A DNA stretch of 64,000 nt from Candidatus Omnitrophota bacterium (lineage in GTDB: Bacteria > Omnitrophota > Gorgyraeia > Duberdicusellales > 4484-171), in NCBI GenBank assembly GCA_003154195.1, contig PMCS01000025.1, forward strand, positions 16,662 through 80,661, read 5' to 3'. Of this stretch, positions 1-20,390 are shown in pieces. How positions within the stretch are numbered: the first letter of the stretch is position 1; every line of letters begins with the position of its first letter. The position numbers and the translations under genes are program-made. The notes under the pieces were generated by a model. That model saw nothing but the letters and a program-made list of their open reading frames with translations, was not told where the DNA came from and ran no database searches.

Positions 1-18
1 TTCAGACAACCGCGTTTT

Positions 19-2742
19 TTACCGATTGCGGCCTAATAACTTCAACCCCTCAAACCACCCCAGGCTGGCAATACCGGCGAAAAACGCGATTGCCAGCTCA
101 CCTAAGGAAAGCGGCGCGAAATGAAAAAGACCCCGTAGAAACGGCACATAAATAACCGCCAGCAGCGCGGCCAAGGTACCGGAACAAACCCACCAAAGCG
201 CTAAATTTCGGGAACGTAAAATGTGCCCCAGACTCTGCTTCCATGAAAGATTAGTAATGATCAACAAGATATTAGCAAAGGTTAACGCGGCGAAGCTAAG
301 CGTACGCGCCTCGATTTCGCCCATCCCCCGGCGCAATGCCAGCAAAAATACGATAAAAACTACCGCCAATACGCTTAACCCCTGAAGCAAGCTGAAAATA
401 AGAGTTTTGCGGCTGAACAACGGCTCACTTAAATTGCGCGGCGGCCGATTCATAATATCTTTTTCTTCCGGGACCGATTCAAAAACTGTGGAACACGCCG
501 GGTCAATAATCAACTCTAAAAAAGCAATATGCGCCGGTAACAGCACCAGGGGAAGATTAAATACCACCGGCAAAAACGACATTCCGGCGATAGGGATATG
601 CACGGAAAAAATATAGGCGATGGCTTTTTTTAAATTATCGAAGATGCGCCGGCCCAAACGTATCGCCTGGACAATCGAAGAGAAATCGTCGTTAAGCAAA
701 ACAATCGCCGAAGCTTCGCGTGCCACATCGGTGCCGCGCTCACCCATCGCTACTCCGATATGCGCCGCCTTCAAGGCCGGGGCATCGTTAACGCCGTCGC
801 CGGTCATCGCCACGACTTCGCCGTTGGCCTTAAGCGCGTTGACAATCGCCAACTTCTGCTCCGGCACCACCCGGGCAAAAATATTCGCCTCTTTGATTCT
901 TTCCCGCAAAGCGAGAAAATCCAACGCTTCCATTTCCGGGCCGGTAATATATTTTTCCGGATTACGTAAACCTATCTGCCTTGCTATATGCTGAGCCGTT
1001 CCGGGATAATCACCGGTAATCATAATCACGCGCACACCCGCGTTATAAGCCTCCTGTACCGAATTAGGAACAATCTTGCGTACCGGATCGACCATCCCGA
1101 TAAAACCAATAAATTCAAAATCGAAATCGTGCTGGTTTTTAGGAAGCTCGCCCTTAGCAAAGATTGCCTTAGCTACGCCCAAAACGCGCAACCCTTTATC
1201 CGCCATTAACGTGATTTTATCTCCCAGGGCAACCCTGGCCGCCGCGTCGATGTGGCATAAATCGATAATCGATTCCGGCGCGCCCTTCGCGGCGATGATG
1301 TAATTCTGCTTATCCGGCGATTCCCAGACATGGGAAAGCGCCAACAACTGTTTGGACAAAACATACTCGTGTACAAGTTGCCAGTTATTATGGATATGTT
1401 CCGTGCCCCTGAGGTATGTTTCGCCTACACGATGGATTTCTTTTTCGATGGGATCAAAAGGGTCGCGCTGGCTGGCAAGGATGCTGTATTCCACGATATT
1501 ATGAAATTCTTCCGGTAAATCATCCTGGTGAGTATCTAATTCCCAATACCGGCCGCGGGTAAACCCCGTTAGAGAACTATGTTCTTTTACCTCGTTATAA
1601 AATTCTTTTCTAACAGGGCGCGACGGCGGCATATCCGCCGAAGACGGAAGAACCCCAGGCTGAAAACCATCATCTTTGTCGGCAACTTTCTCTAACGGGG
1701 TAAACAACCCGGACAACTTCATGGAATTCAAGGTGAGAGTGCCGGTTTTATCGGTGCACAATACCGTCGCCGCGCCTAAAGTTTCTACCACGGCGGCGCG
1801 GCGAGTCAATACGCGATGGCGGGACATCCGCCACGCGCCCAGGGTAAGAAAAATAATCAAAACTACGGGAAACTCTTCCGGCAGCATTGCCATACTCAAA
1901 GTCAGCCCCGAAAGTACACCTTGTATCCAATTACCGCGCGTCAATCCGTAGATAACAACAATCAATAAACACAGGATCGCCCCGGCAATACTGAAATTAC
2001 GCACAATACGGCCGGTTTCTTTCTGCAGCAGTGTCCGCTCTTCGGTAATTTTCCCCAGCGTTTTACCGATTTTTCCCATCTCAGTCGCCGCGCCGATTGA
2101 AATGACTTTCGCCGCGCCACGGCCCTGCACGACAAGGGTGCCGGAAAAAACAAACGGCAGGTCATCGCCACCCGGCCGCTTCACCGCCTCCTTGCCGTCC
2201 CATACCGACTTGCGTACCGCTGCCGATTCACCGGTCAACAGCGATTCATCTACCGAAAGATTGGAACAAAATAATACCACCGCGTCAGCGGGAACGCGGT
2301 CTCCTTCTTTAAGGATAATAATATCTTCCCTGACTACTTCCCGGCCCGAAATACGCTTCTGTTCTCCGTCGCGTATCACCAGCGCCCGGGGACTGGATAA
2401 GTTCTTTAAAGCCTGCAAGGCACGCTCGGTTTTATTTTCCTGATAAAAAGTAATACCCACCACTACCACGACAAACGACAGCAGCATCGCCGCGTCGCTT
2501 ACTTCGCCCAGGAAAAAATAAATCGCGCCGCTGCCCAGCAAAAGAAGCAGCATCGGTTCGCTTAAAACATGCCCTAAAATAGCGAATACATTACGCTTCT
2601 TTTGCGATGGTAATTCGTTATAGCCTTCCGTCTCAAAACGACGGGAAACCACTTCTTCCGAAAGCCCCGATATGTTCTTAACGTCAAATTCAACGTTCAT
2701 GCTATCCCTACGGTATTGTTGGTTATCTTCCCTGAACGTCAA
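19..2742 (-). CDS. P-type cation-transporting ATPase (type IIA-like, Ca2+/Mg2+)
   Basis: 907 aa. Carries the DKTGTLT phosphorylation motif, MITGD and TGDGVNDAPAL hinge motifs, and about 10 TM segments. Confidence 0.9.
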   Translation of the reverse strand: MTFREDNQQYRRDSMNVEFDVKNISGLSEEVVSRRFETEGYNELPSQKKRNVFAILGHVLSEPMLLLLLGSGAIYFFLGEVSDAAMLLSFVVVVVGITFYQENKTERALQALKNLSSPRALVIRDGEQKRISGREVVREDIIILKEGDRVPADAVVLFCSNLSVDESLLTGESAAVRKSVWDGKEAVKRPGGDDLPFVFSGTLVVQGRGAAKVISIGAATEMGKIGKTLGKITEERTLLQKETGRIVRNFSIAGAILCLLIVVIYGLTRGNWIQGVLSGLTLSMAMLPEEFPVVLIIFLTLGAWRMSRHRVLTRRAAVVETLGAATVLCTDKTGTLTLNSMKLSGLFTPLEKVADKDDGFQPGVLPSSADMPPSRPVRKEFYNEVKEHSSLTGFTRGRYWELDTHQDDLPEEFHNIVEYSILASQRDPFDPIEKEIHRVGETYLRGTEHIHNNWQLVHEYVLSKQLLALSHVWESPDKQNYIIAAKGAPESIIDLCHIDAAARVALGDKITLMADKGLRVLGVAKAIFAKGELPKNQHDFDFEFIGFIGMVDPVRKIVPNSVQEAYNAGVRVIMITGDYPGTAQHIARQIGLRNPEKYITGPEMEALDFLALRERIKEANIFARVVPEQKLAIVNALKANGEVVAMTGDGVNDAPALKAAHIGVAMGERGTDVAREASAIVLLNDDFSSIVQAIRLGRRIFDNLKKAIAYIFSVHIPIAGMSFLPVVFNLPLVLLPAHIAFLELIIDPACSTVFESVPEEKDIMNRPPRNLSEPLFSRKTLIFSLLQGLSVLAVVFIVFLLALRRGMGEIEARTLSFAALTFANILLIITNLSWKQSLGHILRSRNLALWWVCSGTLAALLAVIYVPFLRGLFHFAPLSLGELAIAFFAGIASLGWFEGLKLLGRNR

Positions 2743-3469
2743 GAATCTTTGTGCGTTTTTTTAAAAACAGTAAAATAAAATATATCGTCAGCGAAACACT
2801 AAAAAAAATAACCCAGGCGGCATCGAGCACGATCTTTCTTACGGTGATAAAATCCGCCGCCGCGTCAAGGAAGAAAAAAAACGCGACGATGGCGATAAAG
2901 GTCGAAAATTCCCGGCGCAAAACTGTTTTTCCGGAGAACGGCAGATCCGGTTTCTGCCAATTCCCGAAACGGGGGAAAAAAATCGGCGTGCCCTGCGCCC
3001 AATTCAAAAAAACATCGCCGAATTTCGCGCGCAGGAATTCCTCCTCGACAAAAATTATTCTTTCGTAATACAAAAGAAAGCCCGCCGTGCTGACAAGGAC
3101 AAACCACCAAACTTGAACGAAGAAAAATATTCCCAGCATGATCACAAAATTTCCCAGGTATAAAGGGTTACGGACAATCGAATACATGCCTTTGGTATTA
3201 AGCGTTTCCGCCACCTGGTCTTTCGTATTCCTGCCGGAAGTACCCCGCGGCGCGTATCCGGCGACAAAACACCGGATTGCAAGGCCGGCGAAAGACACCG
3301 CGACACAAAATATTTCCCACGCGTTATCTACGGCGTCGCCAAATGTGCGCTTCAGATATTCCGAATCTCTTAACGCGATCGCGAAAACAGGCAGGGCCAG
3401 CAACGGGAGATAACTCCTCCAGCGAAAAAGGAACTCACCCTGTTTGCTCATTTCTTCCCGTAAAGCCAT
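2723..3469 (-). CDS. Isoprenylcysteine carboxyl methyltransferase / phospholipid methyltransferase family membrane protein
   Basis: 248 aa polytopic membrane protein. GMYSIVRNPLYLGNF matches the ICMT/PEMT signature GxYxxxRHPxYxG with H replaced by N. Confidence 0.55.
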   Translation of the reverse strand: MALREEMSKQGEFLFRWRSYLPLLALPVFAIALRDSEYLKRTFGDAVDNAWEIFCVAVSFAGLAIRCFVAGYAPRGTSGRNTKDQVAETLNTKGMYSIVRNPLYLGNFVIMLGIFFFVQVWWFVLVSTAGFLLYYERIIFVEEEFLRAKFGDVFLNWAQGTPIFFPRFGNWQKPDLPFSGKTVLRREFSTFIAIVAFFFFLDAAADFITVRKIVLDAAWVIFFSVSLTIYFILLFLKKRTKILDVQGR

Positions 3470-3675
3470 TGACGCACCTCCTTAAAAATCCAGAAAATTA
3501 TTTTCCTTAGATGAATACGAAAGGTATCCCGTGAGAAAAATAAAAGACTTTGTGGTGGAAACAAAAAAATCAATAAAATCTATTTTAACCCAAAAAACGC
3601 GATTTCCAAGAGCATTTTATAAAAAATTCCTCACCGGCATTTTTTGAATTGAAGAGGATAATTATGGCAAGACGA

Positions 3676-6600
3676 TTACGGCAGTTTGCTGTATTGTTTA
3701 AGCGGCGGCTCTTGACCGGAAATGCCTAAGGCGGTTTTAAGATCTTTTACTTCCTCCATCCCCATGATTTCTACCCGAAATCCGCCGAAGTTGTTGAAAT
3801 CAATAGATGGTAGATGATAGATAGCAGACGGTAGATTGGAAACCCCTGAAGACGCATTGATATTTTTAGTTTTTATCTGCTTATCTGACATCTGACTATC
3901 CACAGTTTTCACTTCCAGATTCAGCTTATCCGCTTTTAAATCGATACCGCCAGAGGGGCTATTCGTCGGACTTAAAGCAGAAGACGACGCTACACCATTT
4001 CGCACGGCGACCTTCGATGCTTCAAGATTTTTTTTAACTTTTTCTCTGCCCCAACTCAAATAGTTCATAACCGAACTTTTGGTAAGCTGCAAAATTTTAC
4101 CTATCTCTTTACACTTAAACCCATAAATATAATAAAGAACAAGGGACTCGCGCTCCTTGTCGGGTAATCCGCTCAGGCATCCTTCCAACTGTTCCCTTTG
4201 TATGATATTATGCTCTGTCCCCGGCGCTCGATCGATAACTTGGCGGGCAACGCCGGTCATCTGTTCGTCATCCAACGACAATACTCTATTATTGCGTTTT
4301 TTCCGCGTCCGCATTTCATCGATGCACGTGTAAATCGCTATCCTGCGCAGATACGGAAGGAATCTTCCCTTATCCTGATATGACCCTGAGCGCAGCAATT
4401 TAACTAATTTAGCAAAAATCTCTTGCACTGCGTCACTAGCTGCGTCGCTATCACCATTAAGTTGCTTAACACAGATGTTAAAAATAGCTTGCCAGTAAAG
4501 AGCATACAACTTATTAAAACACTTATCATCCCCGCTCAAAAACCCGGCAATAAGCTGCCCGGCAATCGCTTCTTGAGCATCGAAGCGCCTATACCTATCC
4601 GCCCGGCTTAACGGGCTGGATGTTTTCGGCTCAGCGCCGCCAACCGGAGCTTTGCCGCCTGATTTTTCTTTACTCCCATCTCCTTTCCCGCGTATTGCTT
4701 CTAAACCCGCCTCTGCCCGGTAATGGTCGATGTTTTCGAAAGCTTCGATTGCGGCGGCGCGGACCTGCGGGTGTTCATCATTAAGCGCGTCGCCGATTAC
4801 CCTGTTCACCTCATCAGCAACCGGCGATCGTAAATCATCTGGTTTTACTTTACCCAACGCTTCGATAACGGCAATGCGGACAACCGGGGCAGTGCCGTTG
4901 TCGTAAAATGCTTTTGCCAGGGACGGCAATGCTCTGGGATCGCGCTCTTCGCCGACACGCCACGCGGCAAGGGCGCGCTCTTGAGGGTCTCCCTCATTAT
5001 CCACAAACATCCTGCCGAGGAGTGAATCAAAAGAACCCGGTAATCCTGCGACAAGCTCTTCAAGGGATTGCCGCTTTTCGCCGGCACGACTGGGCTCCCT
5101 GCTTTGTCTTACCTGTTTTTCATCCCCTTCTCCCCTGCCGCCCCTTTTCTCCTTTTCCGAAATACTTTTCATTTCTTCTAATAATTGGCTTACCCGCCCA
5201 GGGCCTTCACTTGTATTTTCCAGTATATCCTTACTTGTTAATAGTCTTGCCCATAGCAAAAGTAAAGAATCAAGAACTTCCGGGCTATGTTCCCCGTCGC
5301 TGGTAAGCGTTACCGTAACCTCATGCTTAAATTCTACAACCAACGAAAGCAATAACCTAATATCTGTAGGTTGGTCACCCACAAGAGTAACGCTTACCCC
5401 ATTATTATTATTATTGGTAATGTGTACCGCAATATCGGAAAATGATTCTTTCATTTGGGAAGAAAATCTAGCCGCCACCGTCGAGGGCCACCCATGAATC
5501 CCCCTCGAATTCATCACCTTAATATCCAGCCAAGCTTCAACCGGGCTGGCGGCCAGCTTTACTCCTTCATACCATTTATCAACATTCGCCTGGCGCCGCG
5601 CTTTTTCTTTATCCCGGTCGATCCTGACGATGGGATAAATCCCTTCTTCTGTGCCATCAGGCCATTTTGCGATAAAGGCATTCTGGTTACCCGCGGGTAA
5701 AACTCCCTGGTAGCCGATGCCCTGCACCGGCTCATCCAGCTTGATATCACGAATATCCGTCCAGGTTCCATCGGGATGGATGACCCCGGCATGAATTTGA
5801 GCCGGCGCCTGCGCCTGAATCGTTACCGCCTCATTTTTAGGGGCCGCAAAATATATGCGAGCGGATTTATCGCTCCAAACCGGTTCCCGGGCCAACGAAG
5901 CCTCAATCGACGACCGGGCGGTCTTCTGGTACAACTTGGGAAAAAGCAAACTTAACGCGCGCAGGTTCTCAAAAATGCTCCAGGCTTGTTTATAGGCGCC
6001 GGTCTTATTGTATTCGGTTTCTAAATTATTATCTCCGCTGAATATCTCGGCAATGCCGTGAAGGTCCCTCAGCTGTTTGGCCAAACCGGAAAAATAACCT
6101 TTTTCCGCCAATAACCGAATTGTTTTTTCCCGGCCGTAAACGCGGATACAAGCCTGTATGCCGATGCCGCTTAAATGCGTCCAGACCAAACCCTGGTGAT
6201 AGGCCTCCTCCTTGTTACCGTCAGTCCGCAGAGGCTTGTATGCCGGATCATCGCGAGAAAGCGTCCGGAACCCATATACGGTAAAAAGTTCATCCATCAT
6301 TTTATCCATTATCCGTTTTGCCTGCTCGCCCTCAACCAATCCCAGAGCAACCGCCCACATCTGGTTGGGCCGAATCATCTCCGCTTCCTTGCTATCGCCG
6401 TCGATCGTATCGTAAAGGCATCCTTTTTTTTCATTCCAGTACTTGCCGAAACTTTCCTCAGCCAGTCTGGCTCGAGCCTCATAATTTTCGCGCTTTGAAC
6501 TATCGCCGGTTCTCCCGTAAATATCCGCCATCAATGACAACGCGTTCTTCCATAAAGCGTTCACCTCACCCGGTTTACCGTAACGCGGAGTGAAAATATG

Positions 6601-9600
6601 GCCGAAACCTTCTACCATCCCATCCATCCAGGTTAAATTGGTATTCTGATTTCCGCCCTTAAGCAATCCATCGGAGTCGACGGTGATATCGATATTCCTC
6701 TCTCCTTTATCGCTGTATACCAAATGGATTCCTTCTCGATGAGCGCGCATGATATCTTCTAATATTTCCAAGATTGTAGCTTTTTTTCTATCGCCGCTAA
6801 TGCCGAAAGCAAGGCTGATCGGCGTTTGTAAAAAAGCGTAGTCGCCGGTCGCCTTTAAATATTCGCCGATTGCCCAGAACATCAACATCGTCGAGTCAAT
6901 AGAACCGGGATTGACGTTTGTTCCGTCGCCGATAAAATTCGGCAATAATCCCTGTTTAACAAATCTTATGTAAGTGCACATAATATTTTTAAACGCCTCG
7001 ACATGCCCTGTAGCGAGCAACCCCGGTAAGCTGAGCATCGTATCCCGCGACCAATTACGCAAATAAGATGTGGGGCCAAAGCTGGGAAAACCGGCAACGA
7101 TTGACCAGCCGATAGCAGGATCATAGCGGTTACTGCCATCCGACAGACGGCTGACACTGAGGGTAGGGTCAAAATAAACCATATTTTCGCCGGCTTCCAT
7201 GAGCCCGGCAAAAACATTCTGCACCCGGCGGACAAACGGCAACGCGCTGTCAAACTCATTCATCCGCTCATAGGGCGGCAATACTTCGATACGGTAATCC
7301 CGGGGCTTGTGGCCATATCGCGCCTGCTCATCATGATCCCACTGCCCGGAACCAAGCCACTTAAAAGTCATCCAGTATTCACTGCCGGTTTCAAGGCCAG
7401 GCACGGCAGCGACGTATTCACCGCTCTGCGCATTGAACCGCGCTTCAATATCCCGCGCCGGTTCGCCGTGTTTTCGAATACGCAGCATAAAAGAATTTTT
7501 ATTTCTTACGACTAAAGTTTTTCCCGAAGGCATGACAAACGTATCGGTTTTATTCTTATCGGAAAATTCCCATACCGCTTCATCGGCGCCAATATTAACC
7601 GGTCCAGAGACGCTTACTTTCTTCCTTCCTCCTTCCTTCTTCACCCCTCGGTCCCCCCCGCCCTTTGACTTGGCCACCGGGCTCGACGAACTGACGCTAT
7701 AATCCGCCGCCGGATCAAGATAAAACGCGTGAACCTGAGCTGGTTCGAGGCTGAAATACAAACCTACATAATCACCGTCAACCTTTACCGTGTCGGTCCC
7801 CGGCGTAAATGTATACCTCGGGCAATCCTTCTGATCAACCGCCCGGCTCAAATCAACCAAGTCAAAAGGTTTCGTTATATCGATATTAAAATGTTTATGA
7901 TTGATCCAAAAATGACCTTGCGCCGGGTAACCGGAAAAATTTTCGACAAAGACCATCGCGCGCTTTCCATCGGGAGAATACCGCTCAACCTGTAACGCCA
8001 CCCCCCTGCCGTGTTCGCCAAGAACTTTTATGTCGGAATTCCTGGGGTTTAACATAAAAGGGAACCTCATGCGCAAATTATTGATTATCGCTAATTCCGG
8101 GACGAGGTCAACGCCGGTATCGCGCGGCGCGTACGCCCAGAGTACTTCTTCACCAGGCGCACGATTAAAATCACGGCCGTCGCCCTGTTCCCAGCCCGGC
8201 CCCGGGCTGTATGCCGCGGAAGTCGTCCCGGCAAACCACATCCCAATCCGGCAGGCAACCGCCGGCGGAACACGATAATCCAATAAGCCGAGGATTTTCG
8301 CCGCATTGCGCCAATCGTGACTGGCCATCATCATCAGATAACGGTCCTGGTCGTTGCGCCGGCCGGTCCCATCCGGCGGCCATTGATGATTGTCTAAAGC
8401 TCGGGGACCGCCTTCGCCGTCGATTAAAATATGCCGGCTTGCAATCGTGCCATCACCGCCCTCCCCCCACTTAGCCCCCCAGTTGGTGATAATCGGCATC
8501 CAGCCCCGCTGCAGCGCGTCGCGATAAAGCTTATGTATCTCCGGCGAACCTAAAAGTTCCGGCATCATCAGCCAATCGTGCTTTTTAAATTCACCGGTAA
8601 GACTATCCCAGTACCCGGGCTTATCCCTGACCTGCCAGAGCGCGTCGCCCCTCATACCGCTAAAACCAAAATATTCCAGATATGCTACGATTTCCCTTCT
8701 CACGTAATCATAATCGGAGTATATCGCTAAAGGATCCCATTTTTTGTCGCCTACCCCGGGATTTGCCCTGCCGTTATCGACCAGTACTCCGGGGTTATGG
8801 ACCGAATCCACGCCCACAATCGAAGGGGCAACCGGATAATCGATCAGCGCCCGGACATTGTGCGCCCGGGCATCATCGACTAAATCCCTGATAAATTTAT
8901 GGAGCCAGTATTGCTCAAATAAAACAAGGTTCATTAATTTCTTATAAATCGGCAGGGCGCGGATCTGTTCGTTTGAACTCTGTAATAAATCAGAAACACG
9001 GTATTGGGGAAATCTTTTTAGAATAAATTTAAGATACCCCGGCCAGCCGTCGCGCAAAATCCTTAAAACCAGCGCGTCAGCCCCTTTATTAACCCGGCCG
9101 TCAGCCAGCGTCCGCATCGGCTTTATAAAATTTTTAGCCAGCCTATCGCGATCCGTTCTTTCCCAATACTCATATTTGGCGACTAAATCATCACCCTCGC
9201 CTTCCACTTCAGCGATATCGTGATAACCGCGATTGATGATCCAGGGACTGATCGACGCGTAAGCCGAATCATCGACAATAAATTCAAAATCACCGAAACT
9301 TCCTGTAGTCTTGTATTGCGCAATCGCCACGTCGACATCACCGGCGTACTTAGCGACATTGGCTTGAGATTTACGCTTATCCCAGTGGGCGGACATGGAA
9401 ACCGGAGATAAAAGTATCGCCGTGGCTTTCGCCTCTGCCGCCGCTTTCACCAAAGCTCGACGGTTGACATGGCCTTCCCAGTTAGCCGCTTTGGGATCAG
9501 CATAACGCGACGGCCACATCTGCAAAATCGAACCAGAAGTAGGGTTCCCGGCCGAATCAAGAAGAAACCAATCCGGAACAGGAAAATCTTTGATAATATC

Positions 9601-12327
9601 TCGCGGATCGCCATATCGAACCGCCGGACTGCCGGAAACAGCTTTCTTTTTCCCGGCGGCTGATGACGCTCGGCCGGCCGGGCTGGCGGCGGCGGAAAGC
9701 GGACTGGAATTGGACTTATTTCTACCCGGCGCAATTTTAATAAAATATGCTTTCGTATAATGCCCCGCCGGAACCTTTACCGTTCCATCTGTGACTTGAC
9801 CCCATTCAGTCTGATAAAATGTCGGCTCCTCACGCATCCCATCGTCGACATGTATAGATTTTATAAAACGGAAATCAAATCCGCTTTCTTTCAATCTAAG
9901 CGCCTCCGGTAATGAATCGAAAAACCCCTCTTGCGCCTCTAATTCCGCACGCACTTCCTCTACAAATTTTCTTTTTTTTCCATTGATAGCAATGATAGCC
10001 TTATAAACCGTTTCCGGATCGGTATTCGTAAATGCTCGATAAACTGCGGCTTCCGTTGACTTATCGCCAATCTTACCGAGAGCGTTACAAGCATCTCTAC
10101 GAATCCTTGGATTATAATCCTCCAAATCTCTGAGATAACGTTTTATCTTTAATTCCTTGGTTAACGATCTCATCTCGTCAAGAGCATCGTAAGCTGCCTT
10201 ACGAACATCACTATTTTTATGCGTTAATTTCTTAGTAAAAATCGGGACAGCGCGCTTGCCAATTTTTGCCAGTTTTCTAGCTGCATCATAATCACTGCCT
10301 ATGCGCTCGCTGAAATAACTTATAGGTAAAAACAATCGCCAGCTAAAATATACTAAAGGGGGAGTGAAAAGCCCTCCCCAAAAAGCACCAGTAATATCTA
10401 ACTCCTGCACAAATTCATTCCACTGGCGTTGCCAAAACGCCTCTGAAGACTCCGACATAATATTACCAAGAGCCTTTAAGTCACGTAAGGGTTCTCCGGC
10501 AAGTATCATTTGCACAGCATGGCCACCTAAATAATGCCCGAGAATCCCGCCACCTATTATTCCCGCAATAATTGATCCCCCAATCACCCACTTTGTCACC
10601 GCCGAACTTGTTACGTTTCCCGTAAGCACCGGACCATCGCACCAACCGTCTAATTTTATCGCCTTTAAATCATAATGAACCATTGCGCCAATTTCGGCGT
10701 CAGTTAACGCAAATCTATTACGCGTAAGAGTTATACTTCTAAATAAAGAGGCGATTACAAGCGAGCCTTTTTGTTTATCATATTCTGCATTCTCTTCCGC
10801 AACATGCTTCTTCCGTCTTCCTTCTACATTCACCAGCCTTTGTCTTTCATCCCAGCGAAACGAAGGCCTCTCGCCCTTCGTTCTTTCCCCTTTCCCCTTC
10901 CATCTTTCCTCTTTCTTGCTCCGTCTCTCACCTATAGTCTGCGGGATGATTGTCCCGAGAGAAGCCTGAGAACTAACCATAGACTCACTTTCCGCATTCA
11001 TTATCCCCAACCGCGCGGTAACCACTGTAGCCTCATTATTTTTTATAGGCGAACTTGAATCCAGCGGGCTGCAGGCAACCGTAGCCTGATAATCAAAAAA
11101 CCGCGCCATACTGGCTCCGCCGCTAAAGTACCGGCGCCGGACCGGTTTCTTTGTGGACCGGTCTAAATCTTTCTTGATGTAATCATAGACGCCTTTCTTG
11201 TAGGCTTCTAAGTACTGGCTGTAGATCTTCTGCTTGATCGCCGGGTCGGAGGTTTCGATACCTTTGGTTTTATTTTTATCGAAGTACCGGCTAAAAACGT
11301 TTAGCCCGTTGGGCCTGTTTAGCCCGTTAGAAGATTTTAACCCTGCAACCGGCTCAACGGACTCAACTGACTCAACGATTTGCCGCAAGCGACGCTTAAA
11401 CCACGCCGCCAGGATCACCGCACTACATACCTGGCGCAGTTGGCTGAAATTCTTGCCGTGGTTGACGTCCTGCTCGATTAAAGGAACAACTACTTCTTTC
11501 ATGACTTGGCTGGTCAATTCGTTTAGCCCGTTGAGTCCGTTTTGCCCGTTGGGCCCGTTAGGTCTGTTAGGAGATTTTAACCCTGCAACCGGCTCAACCG
11601 GCCTAACCGTCTTAACGCTTTTTTCCATAGCAACATAATCAGCTTCCATCATGACTTTAAGCGAAGACTCTCCGATTATGGCTTTATCACTATCTTCATA
11701 GATTTGAGCTTTATTGGGGATGATCCAGATTTTGTTGAAAGTATCGAAGGGTAAATTGTTTGTGCCAAAAAGCTTACTCGCTTGCGCGTAAACTTTTTTC
11801 CAGAAATTCTTTCCGATTTCACTTTCCGGATAAGTAACGCTGGCGGATAGTTGCTTCAAAACGTAGTCCTGAGACAGTAAATCTTTCCCTAAATCAGTTT
11901 GTCCCAAAGAATCGGCAACGATTCTTTGGGACTCGTAGGGGGAAAGGTTTACCCATAATTCATCTTCGGGAATAGTCAAAGCGGCAAGAAAATAGTTTAT
12001 CAGTTTTGTCGATTCGGATTTCAGCTCGTCAGATGCCAGGTTAGAATCGCCGCGATTGATGATAAAGTCAAATTTTAAAGGGTCGCTGGGGTAGAATTTA
12101 ATGCCCAGAAGCTGGGCCGGGGTATATTCCGGGCTGAGCGAAACCAGCGATGCCGGAGCAGGCATGTAGGACAGGGCGGAGCCCGGGACGGAAGCGCGGG
12201 CGTAACCTACCCCCAGGCTTGTCCCCAGAAACGAGACCAGCAAAATCACGATGGCCAACTTGCGATAAATTATTGAATGTGGTTTAGATAGTTTAAGCAG
12301 CATTATAATCCGGCCTGCGCCAGGCAA
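3676..12327 (-). CDS. Giant multidomain protein (2883 aa): signal/TM, Asn-Gly repeats, HEAT repeats, GH13-like barrel, GDE_C amylo-alpha-1,6-glucosidase domain, HEAT repeats, C-terminal ECF sigma-70 domain
   Basis: An 8.65-kb ORF with no stop codon cannot arise by chance at this GC content. The N-terminus has a hydrophobic leader; a TM segment follows (VIGGSIIAGIIGGGILG). PBS-lyase/HEAT-like repeats are present (DVRKAAYDALDEM, NPRIRRDACNALGKIG). GH13-like regions are recognisable: VDSVHN (I), GMRGDALWQ (II), MMMASHDWRN (IV). GDE_C motifs are clear (RNWSRDTMLSLPGL, LTWMDGM). The C-terminus carries sigma-70 region 2 and region 4 (GDDKCFNKLYALYWQAIFNICVK ... LPDKERESLVLYYIYGFKCKEIGKILQLTKSSVMNYL). 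Confidence 0.8.
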   Translation of the reverse strand: MPGAGRIIMLLKLSKPHSIIYRKLAIVILLVSFLGTSLGVGYARASVPGSALSYMPAPASLVSLSPEYTPAQLLGIKFYPSDPLKFDFIINRGDSNLASDELKSESTKLINYFLAALTIPEDELWVNLSPYESQRIVADSLGQTDLGKDLLSQDYVLKQLSASVTYPESEIGKNFWKKVYAQASKLFGTNNLPFDTFNKIWIIPNKAQIYEDSDKAIIGESSLKVMMEADYVAMEKSVKTVRPVEPVAGLKSPNRPNGPNGQNGLNGLNELTSQVMKEVVVPLIEQDVNHGKNFSQLRQVCSAVILAAWFKRRLRQIVESVESVEPVAGLKSSNGLNRPNGLNVFSRYFDKNKTKGIETSDPAIKQKIYSQYLEAYKKGVYDYIKKDLDRSTKKPVRRRYFSGGASMARFFDYQATVACSPLDSSSPIKNNEATVVTARLGIMNAESESMVSSQASLGTIIPQTIGERRSKKEERWKGKGERTKGERPSFRWDERQRLVNVEGRRKKHVAEENAEYDKQKGSLVIASLFRSITLTRNRFALTDAEIGAMVHYDLKAIKLDGWCDGPVLTGNVTSSAVTKWVIGGSIIAGIIGGGILGHYLGGHAVQMILAGEPLRDLKALGNIMSESSEAFWQRQWNEFVQELDITGAFWGGLFTPPLVYFSWRLFLPISYFSERIGSDYDAARKLAKIGKRAVPIFTKKLTHKNSDVRKAAYDALDEMRSLTKELKIKRYLRDLEDYNPRIRRDACNALGKIGDKSTEAAVYRAFTNTDPETVYKAIIAINGKKRKFVEEVRAELEAQEGFFDSLPEALRLKESGFDFRFIKSIHVDDGMREEPTFYQTEWGQVTDGTVKVPAGHYTKAYFIKIAPGRNKSNSSPLSAAASPAGRASSAAGKKKAVSGSPAVRYGDPRDIIKDFPVPDWFLLDSAGNPTSGSILQMWPSRYADPKAANWEGHVNRRALVKAAAEAKATAILLSPVSMSAHWDKRKSQANVAKYAGDVDVAIAQYKTTGSFGDFEFIVDDSAYASISPWIINRGYHDIAEVEGEGDDLVAKYEYWERTDRDRLAKNFIKPMRTLADGRVNKGADALVLRILRDGWPGYLKFILKRFPQYRVSDLLQSSNEQIRALPIYKKLMNLVLFEQYWLHKFIRDLVDDARAHNVRALIDYPVAPSIVGVDSVHNPGVLVDNGRANPGVGDKKWDPLAIYSDYDYVRREIVAYLEYFGFSGMRGDALWQVRDKPGYWDSLTGEFKKHDWLMMPELLGSPEIHKLYRDALQRGWMPIITNWGAKWGEGGDGTIASRHILIDGEGGPRALDNHQWPPDGTGRRNDQDRYLMMMASHDWRNAAKILGLLDYRVPPAVACRIGMWFAGTTSAAYSPGPGWEQGDGRDFNRAPGEEVLWAYAPRDTGVDLVPELAIINNLRMRFPFMLNPRNSDIKVLGEHGRGVALQVERYSPDGKRAMVFVENFSGYPAQGHFWINHKHFNIDITKPFDLVDLSRAVDQKDCPRYTFTPGTDTVKVDGDYVGLYFSLEPAQVHAFYLDPAADYSVSSSSPVAKSKGGGDRGVKKEGGRKKVSVSGPVNIGADEAVWEFSDKNKTDTFVMPSGKTLVVRNKNSFMLRIRKHGEPARDIEARFNAQSGEYVAAVPGLETGSEYWMTFKWLGSGQWDHDEQARYGHKPRDYRIEVLPPYERMNEFDSALPFVRRVQNVFAGLMEAGENMVYFDPTLSVSRLSDGSNRYDPAIGWSIVAGFPSFGPTSYLRNWSRDTMLSLPGLLATGHVEAFKNIMCTYIRFVKQGLLPNFIGDGTNVNPGSIDSTMLMFWAIGEYLKATGDYAFLQTPISLAFGISGDRKKATILEILEDIMRAHREGIHLVYSDKGERNIDITVDSDGLLKGGNQNTNLTWMDGMVEGFGHIFTPRYGKPGEVNALWKNALSLMADIYGRTGDSSKRENYEARARLAEESFGKYWNEKKGCLYDTIDGDSKEAEMIRPNQMWAVALGLVEGEQAKRIMDKMMDELFTVYGFRTLSRDDPAYKPLRTDGNKEEAYHQGLVWTHLSGIGIQACIRVYGREKTIRLLAEKGYFSGLAKQLRDLHGIAEIFSGDNNLETEYNKTGAYKQAWSIFENLRALSLLFPKLYQKTARSSIEASLAREPVWSDKSARIYFAAPKNEAVTIQAQAPAQIHAGVIHPDGTWTDIRDIKLDEPVQGIGYQGVLPAGNQNAFIAKWPDGTEEGIYPIVRIDRDKEKARRQANVDKWYEGVKLAASPVEAWLDIKVMNSRGIHGWPSTVAARFSSQMKESFSDIAVHITNNNNNGVSVTLVGDQPTDIRLLLSLVVEFKHEVTVTLTSDGEHSPEVLDSLLLLWARLLTSKDILENTSEGPGRVSQLLEEMKSISEKEKRGGRGEGDEKQVRQSREPSRAGEKRQSLEELVAGLPGSFDSLLGRMFVDNEGDPQERALAAWRVGEERDPRALPSLAKAFYDNGTAPVVRIAVIEALGKVKPDDLRSPVADEVNRVIGDALNDEHPQVRAAAIEAFENIDHYRAEAGLEAIRGKGDGSKEKSGGKAPVGGAEPKTSSPLSRADRYRRFDAQEAIAGQLIAGFLSGDDKCFNKLYALYWQAIFNICVKQLNGDSDAASDAVQEIFAKLVKLLRSGSYQDKGRFLPYLRRIAIYTCIDEMRTRKKRNNRVLSLDDEQMTGVARQVIDRAPGTEHNIIQREQLEGCLSGLPDKERESLVLYYIYGFKCKEIGKILQLTKSSVMNYLSWGREKVKKNLEASKVAVRNGVASSSALSPTNSPSGGIDLKADKLNLEVKTVDSQMSDKQIKTKNINASSGVSNLPSAIYHLPSIDFNNFGGFRVEIMGMEEVKDLKTALGISGQEPPLKQYSKLP
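11300..11617 (-). repeat. Internal duplicated segment (two ~90-bp copies, 11300-11387 and 11521-11617) inside the giant gene, encoding (N-G-x)n repeats
   Basis: A 9-bp-periodic NNNNCCGTT run is followed by the shared core ttag(a/g)agattttaaccctgcaaccggctcaac(c)gg. It translates to VEPVAGLKS.N..NG.NGLN, which occurs twice. Confidence 0.8.
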
Positions 12328-12410
12328 AATTCTCCCTTATTTTATTATAAGTATTAGTATATAACATATTTATTATGGAAATGCCAATCACGCGGCAAAA
12401 TTTATCCAAG

Positions 12411-12456
12411 AAATAAAAAAGGCCTGCCCTTTTTATAAAGGGCAGGCCTTTTTTTG
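12411..12456. terminator. Bidirectional rho-independent terminator
   Basis: An A-run, then ggcctgccc / gggcaggcc (a perfect 9-bp stem), then T7. It lies immediately 3' of the minus-strand gene 12512..12874 and upstream of the giant gene. Confidence 0.8.
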
Positions 12457-12511
12457 CCGCTGCCTACAGCCTGTTTTCAGGCCACTCACTACAACGCGAT
12501 ACCGAAAACTG

Positions 12512-12874
12512 TTATTTTACTAACGCAATCGAAACCGCTTCGTTGGTTCCATTTTTTTTGGTAATATACTGCGTTTTGACTTTTTCTCCGGCAACAAGCT
12601 TATCGAAAGTAATCGGTTTGCCGTCGGCATCGGAGATAACCGTCGACGCCTTTACGGCCATGGTTAAATCTTTGTCCTTGGCTACGATGATTTTAATCGA
12701 AGCATCCGTAGCTTTTGCCGCATCGGCGGGAACAAGAGAATCGATGGTCCCGGAAACGGTCATCGCTACCGGCGCCTTGGCCTTTGCCTTTGCCGTTGCC
12801 GTTGTTTTCTGCTGAGCGAAACAAAGAGAACCGGCGGTCACCATCAAAACAAACAAAAATAATGCTTTCTTCAT
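12512..12874 (-). CDS. Small secreted protein (signal peptide, KAKAKAP low-complexity)
   Basis: 120 aa with N-terminal MKKALFLFVLMVTAGSLCFAQQ. A strong RBS is present. A terminator follows the gene. Confidence 0.5.
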   Translation of the reverse strand: MKKALFLFVLMVTAGSLCFAQQKTTATAKAKAKAPVAMTVSGTIDSLVPADAAKATDASIKIIVAKDKDLTMAVKASTVISDADGKPITFDKLVAGEKVKTQYITKKNGTNEAVSIALVK

Positions 12875-12970
12875 ATCCCCACCCCCCCTTTTTTTTGGTA
12901 AAAATGTTCCTTATTTCCATGTTTCTTAAAATCACACCGCGTCTTTTTATATTTCTTATTACTTCATTTC

Positions 12971-13252
12971 TTATTGTTTCATTTCTGCTTGTTTTGGCTC
13001 TACTTGTTTTTTAGGCTTGCTTGGCGCGGCGCGCTTCTTGCTGTTTTTTGGCGCAACTTTCGCGGCCTTAGCTTTTCCCTTTTTATGCGTCGCGGATGTT
13101 TTTTTGGCCGGCGTTACCGAACCTGCCGTAGCGTTCCCCGCATTATTCATGCCGGGTGTTTCTTCCCCGCTTTTAGCAAAACTCATCCCGCAAATGCTGC
13201 CGGAAAAAACCAATGCGATAAAAAAACATACCATCTTTCTCATAACAATCAC
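12971..13252 (-). CDS. Small secreted lysine-rich protein
   Basis: 93 aa. It has a signal peptide and a Lys/Ala/Pro-rich tail. Its start overlaps the stop of the upstream response regulator by 4 bp. Confidence 0.45.
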   Translation of the reverse strand: MIVMRKMVCFFIALVFSGSICGMSFAKSGEETPGMNNAGNATAGSVTPAKKTSATHKKGKAKAAKVAPKNSKKRAAPSKPKKQVEPKQAEMKQ

Positions 13253-13650
13253 CCCCTTTCCTTAATCGAAGCAATACCGCTACGGCATTCCTCCGATTGC
13301 GTTCCAAAGCTTTTATTGATTTTATCCATCAACTTACTAAAACCATCCGCTTTATCATGATAACCGAAAGCGCCGTCAATAAGGCGTTTCTGGTCTTCTA
13401 CCGAATAAACACTCGTAACGATTACCTTGACCTCCCGGTATACTAACGCGATGATACCAAAAAACTCATCGCCCCGTGCTTGCCCCATATTAATATCAAG
13501 CAAAACCAAATCGATAGGCTGTTCTTTCAATGCCGCGCCGGCCTCTACAGTATTAGCCGCCCCTAAGACCTTAAAACCGTAAGCCTCTAAATGGCGTCCG
13601 TAGATATTTCTTATCTTATCTTCATCGTCAACAATAAGAATTGTCTTCAT
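13249..13650 (-). CDS. Single-domain response regulator (CheY-like receiver)
   Basis: Carries the receiver motifs DDE...D (LVLLDINM) and a conserved T/K region. Confidence 0.8.
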   Translation of the reverse strand: MKTILIVDDEDKIRNIYGRHLEAYGFKVLGAANTVEAGAALKEQPIDLVLLDINMGQARGDEFFGIIALVYREVKVIVTSVYSVEDQKRLIDGAFGYHDKADGFSKLMDKINKSFGTQSEECRSGIASIKERG

Positions 13651-13724
13651 AAAAGATATTTATTATTGCAGAACAATGATAAAAGGACGGTTAAAAAAAG
13701 ATTAAAATTTTCTTATTTTGATGG

Positions 13725-15206: not shown

Positions 15207-15875
15207 CTAACCCTTCAACACGTAGCCCGTGCCCCGCAGGGAATGAATCAATTTTTGGGGATAGCCACCGTCGATTTTATTACGTAAATAGTTGATATAG
15301 ACATTGATGATATTAGAAAAACTATCGAAATCGTGGTGCCAGACATGTTCCGAGATCATCGTCCTGGTTACGATCTGGCCGGCGTTGAGCAGCAGATACT
15401 CCAGCAAGGCGTATTCGGTAGCGGTAAGTTTTATTTCTTTACCGGCGCGCACTACTTCATGAGTAAGCTGGTCAAGCTCTAAATCAGCGGCCTTAAGCCT
15501 GGTGGCCTTATCTTGCTGCCGACGCCGCAGGCAGGCGCGCACTCTCGCTAAGAATTCTTTGAAATCAAACGGCTTAGCTAAATAATCGTCGGCGCCGGCG
15601 TCAAGCCCTGACACCCTGTCTTCGATACCGCCCTTAGCGGTAAGCATCAGAACAGGGGTTGAATTTTTTTTAGCGCGCAGCTGGCGGCAGACATCCAGGC
15701 CGTCTTTACCCGGCAAAAGTACATCGAGGATTATCAAATCATACTGGTTGGTCTCCGCCTGGAACAAACCATCAATACCGTCATAAGCGTTATCGACGAT
15801 ATAATGCTGCTCCTTCAACCCGCGTTGGATAAAACTTGCCAACCGCTTTTCGTCTTCAATAACCAGTATCCGCAT
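15207..15875 (-). CDS. OmpR-family response regulator (CusR/CopR-like)
   Basis: A receiver domain plus a winged-helix domain with MISEHVWHHDFD...INVYINYLRNKID, typical of heavy-metal-type regulators. The histidine-kinase gene starts 4 bp downstream. Confidence 0.9.
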   Translation of the reverse strand: MRILVIEDEKRLASFIQRGLKEQHYIVDNAYDGIDGLFQAETNQYDLIILDVLLPGKDGLDVCRQLRAKKNSTPVLMLTAKGGIEDRVSGLDAGADDYLAKPFDFKEFLARVRACLRRRQQDKATRLKAADLELDQLTHEVVRAGKEIKLTATEYALLEYLLLNAGQIVTRTMISEHVWHHDFDSFSNIINVYINYLRNKIDGGYPQKLIHSLRGTGYVLKG

Positions 15876-20287: not shown

Positions 20288-20390
20288 TTCCCGCAAAGAC
20301 AGAGCGAAGCCTCCCCGAGAGGACAAAGCACGCAAAGATAATTAATCTCTTTATTATTTTCTTTACGCCCTTGGCGGGCTTTGCGGTAAA
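20288..20390. repeat. Inverted-repeat element, family E (TTCCCGCAAAG ... CTTTGCGG(G/T)AAA)
   Basis: Terminal inverted repeats ttcccgcaaag / ctttgcggtaaa. A related copy in inverted orientation lies at 34652-34750. Confidence 0.7.

What the first reader, a model, noticed from the sequence alone, without database searches (positions are those of the whole stretch)
3900..4620. ECF sigma-70 domain at the C-terminus has no independent start codon
The region has a canonical ECF sigma N-terminus pattern (E..LI.....GD..AF..LY..Y). It is in frame with the upstream 2600 codons. In the ~150 nt before region 2 I see no in-frame ATG, GTG or TTG, except a TTG inside region 2.1. The sigma domain therefore appears to be a true fusion, not an overlapping separate gene. 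A sigma domain fused behind more than 2500 residues is rare; ECF extensions are usually C-terminal and short.
Basis: seen in the sequence. Interest (0 to 1): 0.75.

Follow-up and report, generated by a model that had tools for sequence, protein, structure and literature searches.

The report
Sigma factor domain inside giant protein
A complete ECF-type sigma factor domain is encoded as an internal part of a 2,883-residue protein of an uncultured Omnitrophota bacterium rather than as its own gene, an arrangement of a transcription factor that was not found anywhere else.

Summary
One stop-free ORF runs on the minus strand from 12327 to 3676 (2,883 codons). Residues 2575-2776 (window 4605-4000) form a complete ECF sigma-2/sigma-4 domain. 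TIGR02937 scores 83.6 bits against a cutoff of 42.9, and a profile built from 133 free-standing ECFs scores 174.5 bits. The AF2 model has pLDDT above 90 and superposes on E. coli sigmaE regions 2 and 4 at 1.1-1.5 A. No in-frame ATG, GTG or TTG lies between 4809 and 4539, and the TTG at 4539 would remove the first sigma-2 helix.

The strongest evidence is comparative. The ORF belongs to an Omnitrophota-specific family, in which 857 proteins share its N-terminal domain. Of the top 120, 105 also end with a conserved "GGIDL..." module. Here that module lies after the sigma domain (residues 2790-2878). The family's start and end signatures therefore bracket the sigma domain, which is internal cargo.

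Caveats:
- It is a singleton. No relative exceeds 32% identity among 1.84 billion representatives, and none of 119 paralogues carries a sigma domain.
- One 26-nt gap fill (5552-5577) lies upstream.
- Membrane topology is ambiguous.
- There are no expression data.

The likely mechanism, a tethered pro-sigma released by proteolysis, is inferred. I rate it a new variant of a known kind.

The parts
3676..12327 (-). Single 2,883-codon ORF (stop included). Start is TTG at 12327, preceded by AAGGGAG at 12338-12332, or alternatively ATG at 12303.
   Evidence: The ENA copy of the same scaffold calls the ATG at 12303.
12415..12454 (-). Strong terminator-like hairpin (18 pairs followed by a T run) upstream of the ORF. 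It separates the ORF from the small secreted-protein genes.
12193..12327 (-). N-terminal signal-peptide-like segment: basic n-region, hydrophobic core at aa 24-42, then ARA|S.
   Evidence: Hydropathy analysis. An N-terminal hydrophobic segment is present in 112 of 119 paralogues.
11110..12306 (-). Conserved Omnitrophota family N-terminal domain (aa 8-406). No Pfam or NCBIfam model matches it.
10528..10593 (-). Borderline, glycine-rich transmembrane segment (aa 579-600). A weaker aromatic hydrophobic segment follows at aa 645-668.
9985..10257 (-). First HEAT repeat block (aa ~691-781).
5968..7116 (-). GDE_C amylo-alpha-1,6-glucosidase domain (aa 1738-2120).
   Evidence: 238.6 bits
5552..5577 (-). 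26 nt that replace a 10-N scaffold gap, plus 72 nt of non-matching G+C-rich sequence, in the ENA copy of this scaffold. The stretch is in frame and has no stop.
4687..4986 (-). Second HEAT repeat block (aa ~2448-2547), directly upstream of the sigma domain.
4606..4683 (-). Disordered, low-complexity linker (aa 2549-2574) between the HEAT block and the sigma domain. It contains no start or stop codon and is a candidate cleavage site.
4285..4605 (-). ECF sigma-2 domain (aa 2575-2681).
4000..4218 (-). ECF sigma-4 domain (aa 2704-2776).
4537..4539 (-). The only nearby in-frame TTG (aa 2597). It has no Shine-Dalgarno motif and lies after the first sigma-2 helix.
3694..3960 (-). Family C-terminal 'GGIDL...GF.xEI' module (aa 2790-2878), downstream of the sigma domain.

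Best explanation
**What it is.** The sigma domain is a genuine, intact ECF sigma-2/sigma-4 module translated as an internal 'cargo' domain of one 2,883-residue protein.

**The family.** The protein belongs to a large Omnitrophota-specific family. Members have a signal-peptide-like N-terminus, a conserved ~400-residue N-terminal domain and a conserved ~60-90-residue C-terminal 'GGIDL' module. Variable domains are strung between these on disordered low-complexity linkers.

**Domain order here.**
- N-terminal domain, borderline TM segment and a HEAT block
- an unassigned ~630-residue region
- a glycogen-debranching (GDE_C) domain
- an unassigned ~120-residue region
- a second HEAT block
- the ECF sigma domain
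- the C-terminal module

**How it most likely works (inferred, not shown).** The sigma domain is made as a tethered pro-sigma. While it is part of the anchored 2.9-kaa protein it is kept away from, or poorly able to engage, RNA polymerase. Cleavage in the flanking disordered linkers (aa 2549-2574 and ~2777-2789) would release a ~200-residue ECF sigma factor that redirects RNA polymerase. This couples transcription to the state or turnover of the giant protein.

**Likely specificity.** The core-binding positions are conserved while several promoter-contacting positions are substituted. Its promoter specificity is therefore probably unusual.
For: **Shown**
- The ORF is continuous.
- It is an ECF domain by several tests. 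TIGR02937 scores 83.6 bits against a cutoff of 42.9. It aligns end to end with SigW, AlgU and RpoE. A profile of 133 free-standing ECFs scores 174.5 bits over profile positions 10-187 of 197.
- In the AF2 model, sigma-2 and sigma-4 have pLDDT above 90. They superpose on sigmaE region 2 (rmsd 1.1-1.4 A over ~90 residues) and region 4 (1.4-1.5 A over 64 residues).
- No canonical in-frame start lies between 4809 and 4539, and the TTG at 4539 falls after helix 1.
- The N-terminal family domain is present (857 hits; 46% identity to P0010).
- 105 of the top 120 N-domain matches have the C-terminal module within their last ~55-135 residues. In this ORF it lies after the sigma domain, at 27.8 bits against at most 3.6 bits for shuffles.
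- The truncated ENA gene call P0001 lacks the C-terminal module, as expected if the split in that copy is an artefact.
- Paralogues carry other transcription or signalling domains deep inside. P0052 has an HTH at aa 2348-2407 of 2,520 plus a receiver domain, and P0045 has HTHs at aa ~1101-1160 of 3,701.
- Hydrophilic linkers delimit the modules. The HEAT-sigma linker and the tail are disordered in the model.
- 33 of 47 well-conserved ECF columns are retained, including the D/Q/E/F positions of region 2.1-2.2.

**From the literature**
- BldN is an ECF made with an N-terminal extension that is removed by proteolysis (PMC7826278).
- Proteolytic release has been proposed for the membrane-tethered ECF52 sigma factors (PMC5826349).
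- Cleavage of giant Omnitrophota proteins into smaller polypeptides has been suggested (bioRxiv 10.1101/2023.11.21.568195).
Against: - It is a singleton. No protein above 32% identity to the sigma domain plus tail exists among 1.84 billion representatives. No relative of the C-terminal 631 residues was found in genome or metagenome scans. None of 119 paralogues has a sigma domain. Conservation of the fusion therefore cannot be shown.
- Both available sequences come from the same scaffold. One 26-nt gap fill (5552-5577) joins the GDE part to the rest.
- Topology is ambiguous. The TM segment is borderline (KD 1.49) and a second weak hydrophobic segment follows. Most paralogues have only the N-terminal hydrophobic segment, and published work predicts much of such proteins to be extracytoplasmic. 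An extracytoplasmic sigma domain could not act on the cell's own RNA polymerase.
- Promoter-contacting positions deviate from the consensus: W2659Y and N2666Y in region 2.3/2.4, and K2754M, R2756Y and R2759W in region 4.2.
- No protease site, anti-sigma domain (no HxxxCxxC motif) or ECF-type target promoter was identified.
- The AF2 model shows no defined HEAT-sigma packing (pTM 0.41).
- There are no expression data.
Confidence: 0.6

Rival explanations
1. The sigma domain is exported or displayed cargo, or a moonlighting module, and does not act on the cell's own RNA polymerase. On this reading the N-terminal signal and the C-terminal module mark a family-wide sorting or export route. The sigma domain would then act outside the cytoplasm, for example in a host or prey cell, or serve only as a binding module.
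For: - 112 of 119 paralogues have an N-terminal hydrophobic signal, but only 30 have a further hydrophobic segment at residues 350-900.
- A conserved C-terminal module combined with an N-terminal signal is the layout of several secretion substrates. This comparison rests on my own background knowledge.
- Preprints predict envelope or extracellular localisation for most long Omnitrophota proteins and their HEAT repeats.
- Promoter-contacting residues of this domain are atypical.
Against: - This protein, unlike most paralogues, has a hydrophobic segment after the N-terminal domain (aa 579-600) followed by a basic stretch (8 K/R against 3 D/E). That fits a cytoplasmic C-terminal part.
- The cargo domains of the family are classic cytoplasmic, nucleotide-dependent enzymes.
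- The core-binding residues of the sigma domain are conserved.
- No secretion machinery has been linked to the module.
Confidence: 0.18
2. A separate sigma polypeptide is made from an internal start, using TTG 4539, a near-cognate ATT or ATA codon, or an upstream ATG or GTG that yields a HEAT-plus-sigma product. The long ORF would then be only one of two products.
For: - Only about 14 of 36 genes in the window have a Shine-Dalgarno-like motif. The lack of one before an internal start is therefore weak evidence.
- In-frame candidates exist: ATG 5010 (aa 2440), GTG 4809 (aa 2507) and TTG 4539 (aa 2597).
- Alternative-start isoforms are known for ECF12 sigma factors (PMC7826278).
Against: - No canonical start occurs in the 89 codons before TTG 4539, and that TTG would delete the confidently modelled first helix.
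- Promoter-like hits across 3400-13800 are at chance level (16 found against 14.7 +/- 3.8 expected), and none lies just upstream of the sigma region on the minus strand.
- The family C-terminal module after the sigma domain shows that it belongs to the long product.
Confidence: 0.08
3. The fusion is an assembly or curation artefact. Either the 26-nt gap fill wrongly joins two genes, or an undetected indel removed a stop and start between the HEAT block and the sigma domain.
For: - The public ENA copy of the scaffold has a 10-N gap and foreign sequence exactly at 5552-5577. Gene callers there split the locus into 2,244 aa and 600 aa.
- Both versions derive from the same scaffold, so they are not independent.
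Against: - The two versions are identical over window 1-5551, which includes the HEAT-sigma junction.
- The gap fill is in frame and free of stops. No start codon lies between it and the next conserved stretch.
- The ORF carries the family N-terminal domain at one end and the family C-terminal module at the other. The truncated 2,244-aa call lacks the C-terminal module.
- Even on the ENA gene call, the sigma domain has an N-terminal extension of about 300 residues.
Confidence: 0.07
4. The domain is a recently captured, decaying relic with no function.
For: - It is a singleton with no close relatives.
- Substitutions occur at conserved DNA-contact positions.
- The domain contains 5 of the protein's 14 cysteines, which could point to a different origin.
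Against: - There are no stops or frameshifts.
- It matches the ECF profile over its full length (174.5 bits).
- Both subdomains are modelled with pLDDT above 90.
- 33 of 47 conserved columns are retained, including the core-binding motif.
Confidence: 0.07

Closest known systems
ECF sigma factors with fused regulatory extensions (ECF41, ECF42, ECF44; membrane-tethered ECF52 such as SCO4117)
   Same: An ECF sigma-2/sigma-4 core is joined in one polypeptide to non-sigma domains. In ECF52 these include a membrane segment and a carbohydrate-related module. No separate anti-sigma gene lies nearby. Proteolytic release has been proposed for ECF52 (PMC5826349).
   Different: In those groups the sigma core is N-terminal and the extension is C-terminal and far shorter. 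Here about 2,575 residues precede the core, including a glycogen-debranching domain and HEAT blocks, and 107 residues follow it. There is no zinc-finger anti-sigma motif. No NCBIfam ECF subfamily cutoff is reached; the best score is 73.5 bits against a cutoff of 206.
Pro-sigma factors: BldN (ECF121), and pro-sigmaE / pro-sigmaK of Bacillus
   Same: The sigma factor is synthesised with an N-terminal extension that must be removed to give the mature factor (BldN: PMC7826278; the Bacillus cases are from my own background knowledge).
   Different: Known pro-sequences are tens of residues long and have no enzymatic domains. No processing protease or cleavage site has been identified here. Processing is inferred, not shown.
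Long multi-enzyme proteins of Omnitrophota ('Archaeovorins' and related)
   Same: The phylum is the same. The proteins share a signal or TM segment at the N-terminus, HEAT repeats used as spacers, and many unrelated enzyme and signalling domains on one chain (bioRxiv 10.1101/2023.11.21.568195 and 10.64898/2026.06.07.730766).
   Different: The proteins described there are at least 10,000 aa long; this one is 2,883 aa. Neither paper mentions a sigma domain ('sigma' occurs 0 times in either main text). Neither describes the paired N-terminal domain and C-terminal 'GGIDL' module found here. There is no dockerin.
Membrane-tethered transcription regulators (ToxR/CadC type; SREBP-type regulated release)
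   Same: A DNA- or polymerase-directed domain sits on a membrane-anchored protein. Its activity is set by location or by proteolytic release. This is an analogy drawn from my own background knowledge.
   Different: Those are DNA-binding activators, not RNA polymerase subunits, and they are not fused to metabolic enzymes.

Membership tests
ECF (group 4) sigma-70 family | Sigma-2 domain (regions 2.1-2.4) | tested here: met
   PF04542 scores 32 bits against a cutoff of 24. The modelled domain superposes on sigmaE region 2 at 1.1-1.4 A.
ECF (group 4) sigma-70 family | Sigma-4 domain (regions 4.1-4.2) | tested here: met
   PF08281 scores 36.9 bits against a cutoff of 25.7. The modelled domain superposes on sigmaE region 4 at 1.4-1.5 A.
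ECF (group 4) sigma-70 family | No region 1.1 or region 3; a short sigma-2 to sigma-4 linker | tested here: met
   No Sigma70_r3 or r1 hit at E <= 0.01. The linker is ~22 residues, partly disordered in the model.
ECF (group 4) sigma-70 family | Family profile score above the curated cutoff | tested here: met
   TIGR02937 scores 83.6 bits against 42.9. My own ECF profile scores 174.5 bits.
ECF (group 4) sigma-70 family | Binds RNA polymerase core and directs promoter-specific initiation | not testable with these tools
   Only indirect evidence is available. Core-binding columns are conserved, while several DNA-contact columns are substituted.
A named ECF subgroup (SigW, SigM, SigE, BldN-type and others) | Score above the subgroup's curated cutoff | tested here: not met
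   The best subgroup scores are 73.5 bits (cutoff 206) and 72.6 bits (cutoff 209). The closest sequence in 1.84 billion representatives is 32% identical.
Omnitrophota N-domain / C-module 'bracketed cargo' family (unnamed; defined here) | Conserved ~400-residue N-terminal domain after a hydrophobic N-terminus | tested here: met
   857 hits, each covering 12-19% of the query. 46% identity to P0010 over aa 8-406. Hydrophobic core at aa 24-42.
Omnitrophota N-domain / C-module 'bracketed cargo' family (unnamed; defined here) | Conserved C-terminal 'GGI[DN][LFM]...GF' module within the last ~55-135 residues | tested here: met
   105 of the top 120 N-domain matches have it. A profile built without this protein hits aa 2790-2878 at 27.8 bits, against at most 3.6 bits for 200 shuffles.
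Giant Omnitrophota proteins as published (Archaeovorin or Dockerin type, >= 10 kaa) | Length of at least 10,000 aa; dockerin or TSP3 repeats for the Dockerin type | tested here: not met
   The protein is 2,883 aa and has no dockerin hit.
Pro-sigma factors (BldN type) | Proteolytic removal of the N-terminal extension to give the active sigma factor | not testable with these tools
   The only support is disordered linkers flanking the domain.

The most novel reading that the evidence does not exclude
The paired N-terminal domain and C-terminal 'GGIDL' module may define a phylum-specific sorting or export route that carries normally cytoplasmic domains out of the Omnitrophota cell. On that reading, this protein delivers a sigma factor, together with a glycogen-debranching enzyme, to a host or prey cell. 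There the sigma factor would redirect a foreign RNA polymerase.
Probability: 0.07. Interest if true: 0.95.

Novelty: new variant of a known kind. Interest (0 to 1): 0.6.

Why it matters
- **Sigma factor biology.** ECF sigma factors are normally ~200-residue free proteins controlled in trans by anti-sigma factors, or in cis by modest C-terminal extensions. One built into a 2.9-kaa signal-bearing multi-enzyme protein would be a new way to control, or re-use, a polymerase subunit. It would link transcription physically to a glycogen-metabolising scaffold in a reduced-genome, probably host-dependent bacterium.
- **The protein family.** The N-terminal domain and C-terminal module found here bracket hundreds of Omnitrophota proteins that carry glycolytic, kinase, helicase, receiver and HTH domains. 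This gives a concrete handle on what these puzzling long proteins are for.
- **Annotation.** The end module provides a test for whether a long ORF is complete. The ENA copy of this gene was split in two at a scaffold gap.

Tried and rejected
- **Homologue search with the C-terminal 631 aa:** nothing returned, because the 8,000 word-sharing candidates were uninformative. HEAT plus sigma as query gave 3 weak ordinary ECFs.
- **Pattern scans of genome contigs and metagenome contigs with the C-terminal 631 aa:** no relatives.
- **Synteny through the neighbouring P-type ATPase:** the best hits are at most 60% identical and come from unrelated phyla, so no syntenic relative was found.
- **The paralogue that also has GDE_C (P0091):** different neighbourhood, no sigma.
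- **Generic ECF promoter consensus:** GAAC-N15-18-CGT gives 23 matches against 21 +/- 5 expected. GGAAC-N15-17-CGT gives 4 against 4.1. Both are at chance level.
- **Internal sigma-70-type promoter or terminator scan of 3400-13800:** counts are at shuffle level.
- **My impression that aa ~2260-2380 is HPr-like:** not supported.
  - No Pfam hit at E <= 1.
  - No PDB sequence hit.
  - No similarity to the HPr-bearing paralogue P0093.
  - The single-sequence AF2 model is unusable, at pLDDT 38.7.
- **Zinc anti-sigma motif HxxxCxxC:** absent.
- **Pfam and NCBIfam models for the family N-terminal domain and C-terminal module:** none.
- **Literature:**
  - No paper in the library contains 'GGIDL' or 'GGIDF'.
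  - A further search for a description of the family found nothing.
  - The supplement of the 2026 preprint has no sigma Pfam entries, and no supplement is held for the 2023 preprint.
- **HEAT block as a fused anti-sigma:** the model shows no confident packing against sigma (pTM 0.41), so the idea is neither supported nor excluded.
Full report
**1. What is in the sequence**

The reported interval lies on the minus strand, inside a single stop-free ORF at window 12327..3676 (2,883 codons). The ORF has its own expression signals. An 18-bp terminator-like hairpin (12454-12415) closes the upstream small-protein gene. AAGGGAG lies 4 nt before the TTG at 12327, and an ATG follows at 12303.

Pfam and NCBIfam place the following domains:
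- HEAT repeats at aa ~691-781
- GDE_C (amylo-alpha-1,6-glucosidase, 238.6 bits) at aa 1738-2120
- a second HEAT block at aa ~2480-2535
- an ECF sigma factor at aa ~2588-2772: Sigma70_r2 32 bits, Sigma70_r4_2 36.9 bits, and TIGR02937 83.6 bits against a cutoff of 42.9

**2. The observation**

Between GTG 4809 (aa 2507, inside the HEAT block) and TTG 4539 (aa 2597) there is no in-frame ATG, GTG or TTG. That is 89 codons. The TTG has no Shine-Dalgarno motif.

It needs three corrections:
- The N-terminal motif matches only approximately.
- 107 residues follow the sigma domain.
- A start-free run of 89 codons is not unusual in this ORF. Runs of 103 and 92 codons also occur, and about 1.6 runs of this length are expected.

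Shine-Dalgarno motifs precede only about 14 of 36 genes in the window. The missing motif alone therefore says little.

**3. Is it a real, intact sigma domain?**

Yes, on all available tests.
- It aligns end to end with SigW (residues 12-184 of 187), AlgU and RpoE.
- A profile I built from 133 free-standing ECFs scores 174.5 bits over profile positions 10-187 of 197.
- An AF2 model of aa 2440-2883 gives pLDDT above 90 for sigma-2 (aa 2575-2681) and sigma-4 (aa 2704-2776).
- In the same model the HEAT helices score ~80-90. The HEAT-sigma linker (aa 2549-2574) and the tail are disordered, and there is no fixed HEAT/sigma packing (pTM 0.41).
- Foldseek superposes the two halves on E. coli sigmaE region 2 (1.1-1.4 A over ~90 residues) and region 4 (1.4-1.5 A over 64 residues).
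- The first sigma-2 helix (aa 2575-2597) lies upstream of the TTG at 4539, so starting there would delete it.
- Of 47 columns conserved at 60% or more among 60 ECFs, 33 are retained, including the region 2.1-2.2 D/Q/E/F positions.
- The differences cluster at promoter-contact positions:
  - region 2.3/2.4: W2659Y and N2666Y;
  - the 4.2 recognition helix: K2754M, R2756Y and R2759W.
- No named ECF subgroup cutoff is reached.

**4. Whose gene is it, and is the assembly sound?**

The full-length query finds 857 proteins, nearly all from Omnitrophota MAGs. They match only the first 12-19% of the query.

The exact genome is also in ENA as scaffold WOOD18-1_SAMN07125062_METAG-scaffold_29.
- In the ENA copy the locus is called as two genes, of 2,244 aa and 600 aa. 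The 600-aa product contains the HEAT block and the sigma domain.
- The two sequences differ only at three 10-N scaffold gaps.
- One gap, with 72 nt of non-matching G+C-rich sequence before it, sits where the window has 26 in-frame nucleotides (5552-5577).
- The window is therefore a gap-closed version of the same scaffold, not an independent assembly.
- From 5551 down to position 1, which includes the HEAT-sigma junction, the two are identical.

**5. The decisive comparative evidence**

The shared N-terminal region is a defined domain (aa 8-406, 46% identical to P0010).

While reading that alignment I noticed that the tails also resemble each other. A systematic check confirmed it.
- 105 of the 120 best N-domain matches carry a 'GGI[DN][LFM]' module within their last ~55-135 residues.
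- Two examples:
  - GGIDLNPALLDLQIKRDGNGVPLP...IEGFxPVIINITPVTNLPLLLGL
  - GGIDLTNNHLDIEVKGEG...FEGFSFKIIKIERL
- This ORF has GGIDLKADKLNLEVK...FGGFRVEIMGMEEVKDLKTALGISG at aa 2793 of 2,883, which is after the sigma domain.
- A profile built from the other 104 tails hits aa 2790-2878 at 27.8 bits (E = 2e-8). The best of 200 shuffled copies of the protein scores 3.6 bits.
- P0001, the ENA gene call truncated at the gap, lacks the module.

The family's start and end signatures therefore bracket the whole ORF. This argues that the 2,883 residues are one protein, including across the gap fill, and that the sigma domain is an internal cargo domain.

Neither signature has a Pfam or NCBIfam model. 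I found no description of them in the searchable literature.

**6. How unusual is it?**

- In an exhaustive search of 1.84 billion representatives, the sigma domain plus tail has 25,724 matches. The best is only 75.8 bits and 32% identity.
- All top 150 carry the domain within 102 residues of their N-terminus.
- None of the 119 paralogues (290,095 residues) has a sigma domain. Some do carry HTH and receiver domains deep inside.
- No relative of the C-terminal 631 residues turned up in the genome or metagenome scans. No syntenic relative was found through the neighbouring ATPase.
- The ECF classification paper states that N-terminal extensions are less frequent and generally shorter than C-terminal ones. 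BldN is its one well-described case, and it is processed by proteolysis (PMC7826278).
- The two preprints on long Omnitrophota proteins never mention sigma domains.

**7. Mechanism**

What is shown: one ORF, an intact ECF fold, flanking disordered linkers, and family brackets.

What is inferred: the domain is a tethered pro-sigma. It would be held on a signal-bearing, possibly membrane-anchored scaffold and released by cleavage in the linkers. Analogies are BldN and the release proposed for the membrane-tethered ECF52 proteins. Published work also suggests that giant Omnitrophota proteins may be cut into pieces.

The main uncertainty is topology.
- The protein has a signal-like N-terminus, one borderline TM segment (aa 579-600, KD 1.49) and a weaker aromatic segment (aa 645-668, KD at most 0.97). 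A basic stretch follows, which favours a cytoplasmic C-terminal part.
- Most paralogues, however, have only the N-terminal hydrophobic segment.
- If the cargo is extracytoplasmic, the sigma domain cannot serve the cell's own polymerase. The exported-cargo rival then gains weight.

No ECF-type promoter signal rose above chance. No anti-sigma motif was found.

**8. Verdict**

It is now backed by the family brackets rather than by the absence of a start codon.

It is a new variant of known kinds: an ECF sigma factor with a fused extension, and an Omnitrophota multi-domain long protein. It is currently a singleton from one metagenome scaffold, with no expression evidence. I score interest at 0.6.

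Noticed in passing
window 11110-12306 (-) and 3694-3960 (-); proteins P0002-P0120: A large Omnitrophota-specific family (857 hits) pairs a conserved ~400-residue N-terminal domain with a conserved C-terminal 'GGIDL...GFxPVIINI' module. Between the two lie highly variable, normally cytoplasmic domains such as PGK, GAPDH, TPI, PGM, PPDK, kinases, helicases, receivers and HTHs. Neither signature has a Pfam or NCBIfam model, and I found no description in the searchable literature.
   Followed up: partly
window 11298-11381 and 11538-11621: Two copies of an 84-nt element, 82% identical and 240 nt apart, each with 9-nt tandem repeats. They encode 'VEPVAGLKS-N-(G/P)xN...' insertions in the conserved N-terminal domain. 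Both are absent from paralogue P0010, which shows gaps at these positions in the alignment.
   Followed up: partly
window 5552-5577, 17503-17511, 20313-20335; L001 16727-16808, 4792-4801, 1981-1990: The window differs from the public ENA scaffold only at three 10-N gaps, so it is a gap-closed version. At the gap inside the giant gene, the ENA copy also carries 72 nt of non-matching G+C-rich sequence. This made gene callers split the gene into 2,244 aa and 600 aa.
   Followed up: yes
window 13282-13305 (-): A GGAAC-N16-CGT match (GGAACGCAATCGGAGGAATGCCGT) lies ~40 nt upstream of the ATG (13242) of a small, lysine/alanine-rich secreted-protein gene. The motif count across the window is at chance level (4 found against 4.1 expected).
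   Followed up: partly
window 4000-4605 (-): Five of the 14 cysteines in the 2,883-residue protein lie inside the ~200-residue sigma domain (aa 2603, 2619, 2668, 2717, 2739). One of them, C2668, sits at a column where Cys is the majority residue in ECFs. This could reflect a different origin or redox sensitivity. It is a post-hoc observation.
   Followed up: no
window 7708-9600 (-) and ~5190-5550 (-): Two sizeable stretches of the protein (aa ~910-1540 and aa ~2260-2380) have no Pfam match. The second looked HPr-like to me ('NSRGIHGWPS'), but no sequence search supported that and the single-sequence AF2 model was unusable.
   Followed up: partly
window 12512-12874 (-), 12971-13252 (-), 13249-13650 (-), 13725-15203 (-), 15207-15875 (-): Directly upstream of the giant gene lie two small signal-peptide proteins, each with a strong G-rich Shine-Dalgarno motif. 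Further upstream are a stand-alone receiver protein, a histidine kinase and an OmpR-type response regulator. Downstream are a PEMT-family methyltransferase and a P-type ATPase whose closest relatives (up to 60% identity) are in unrelated phyla.
   Followed up: partly
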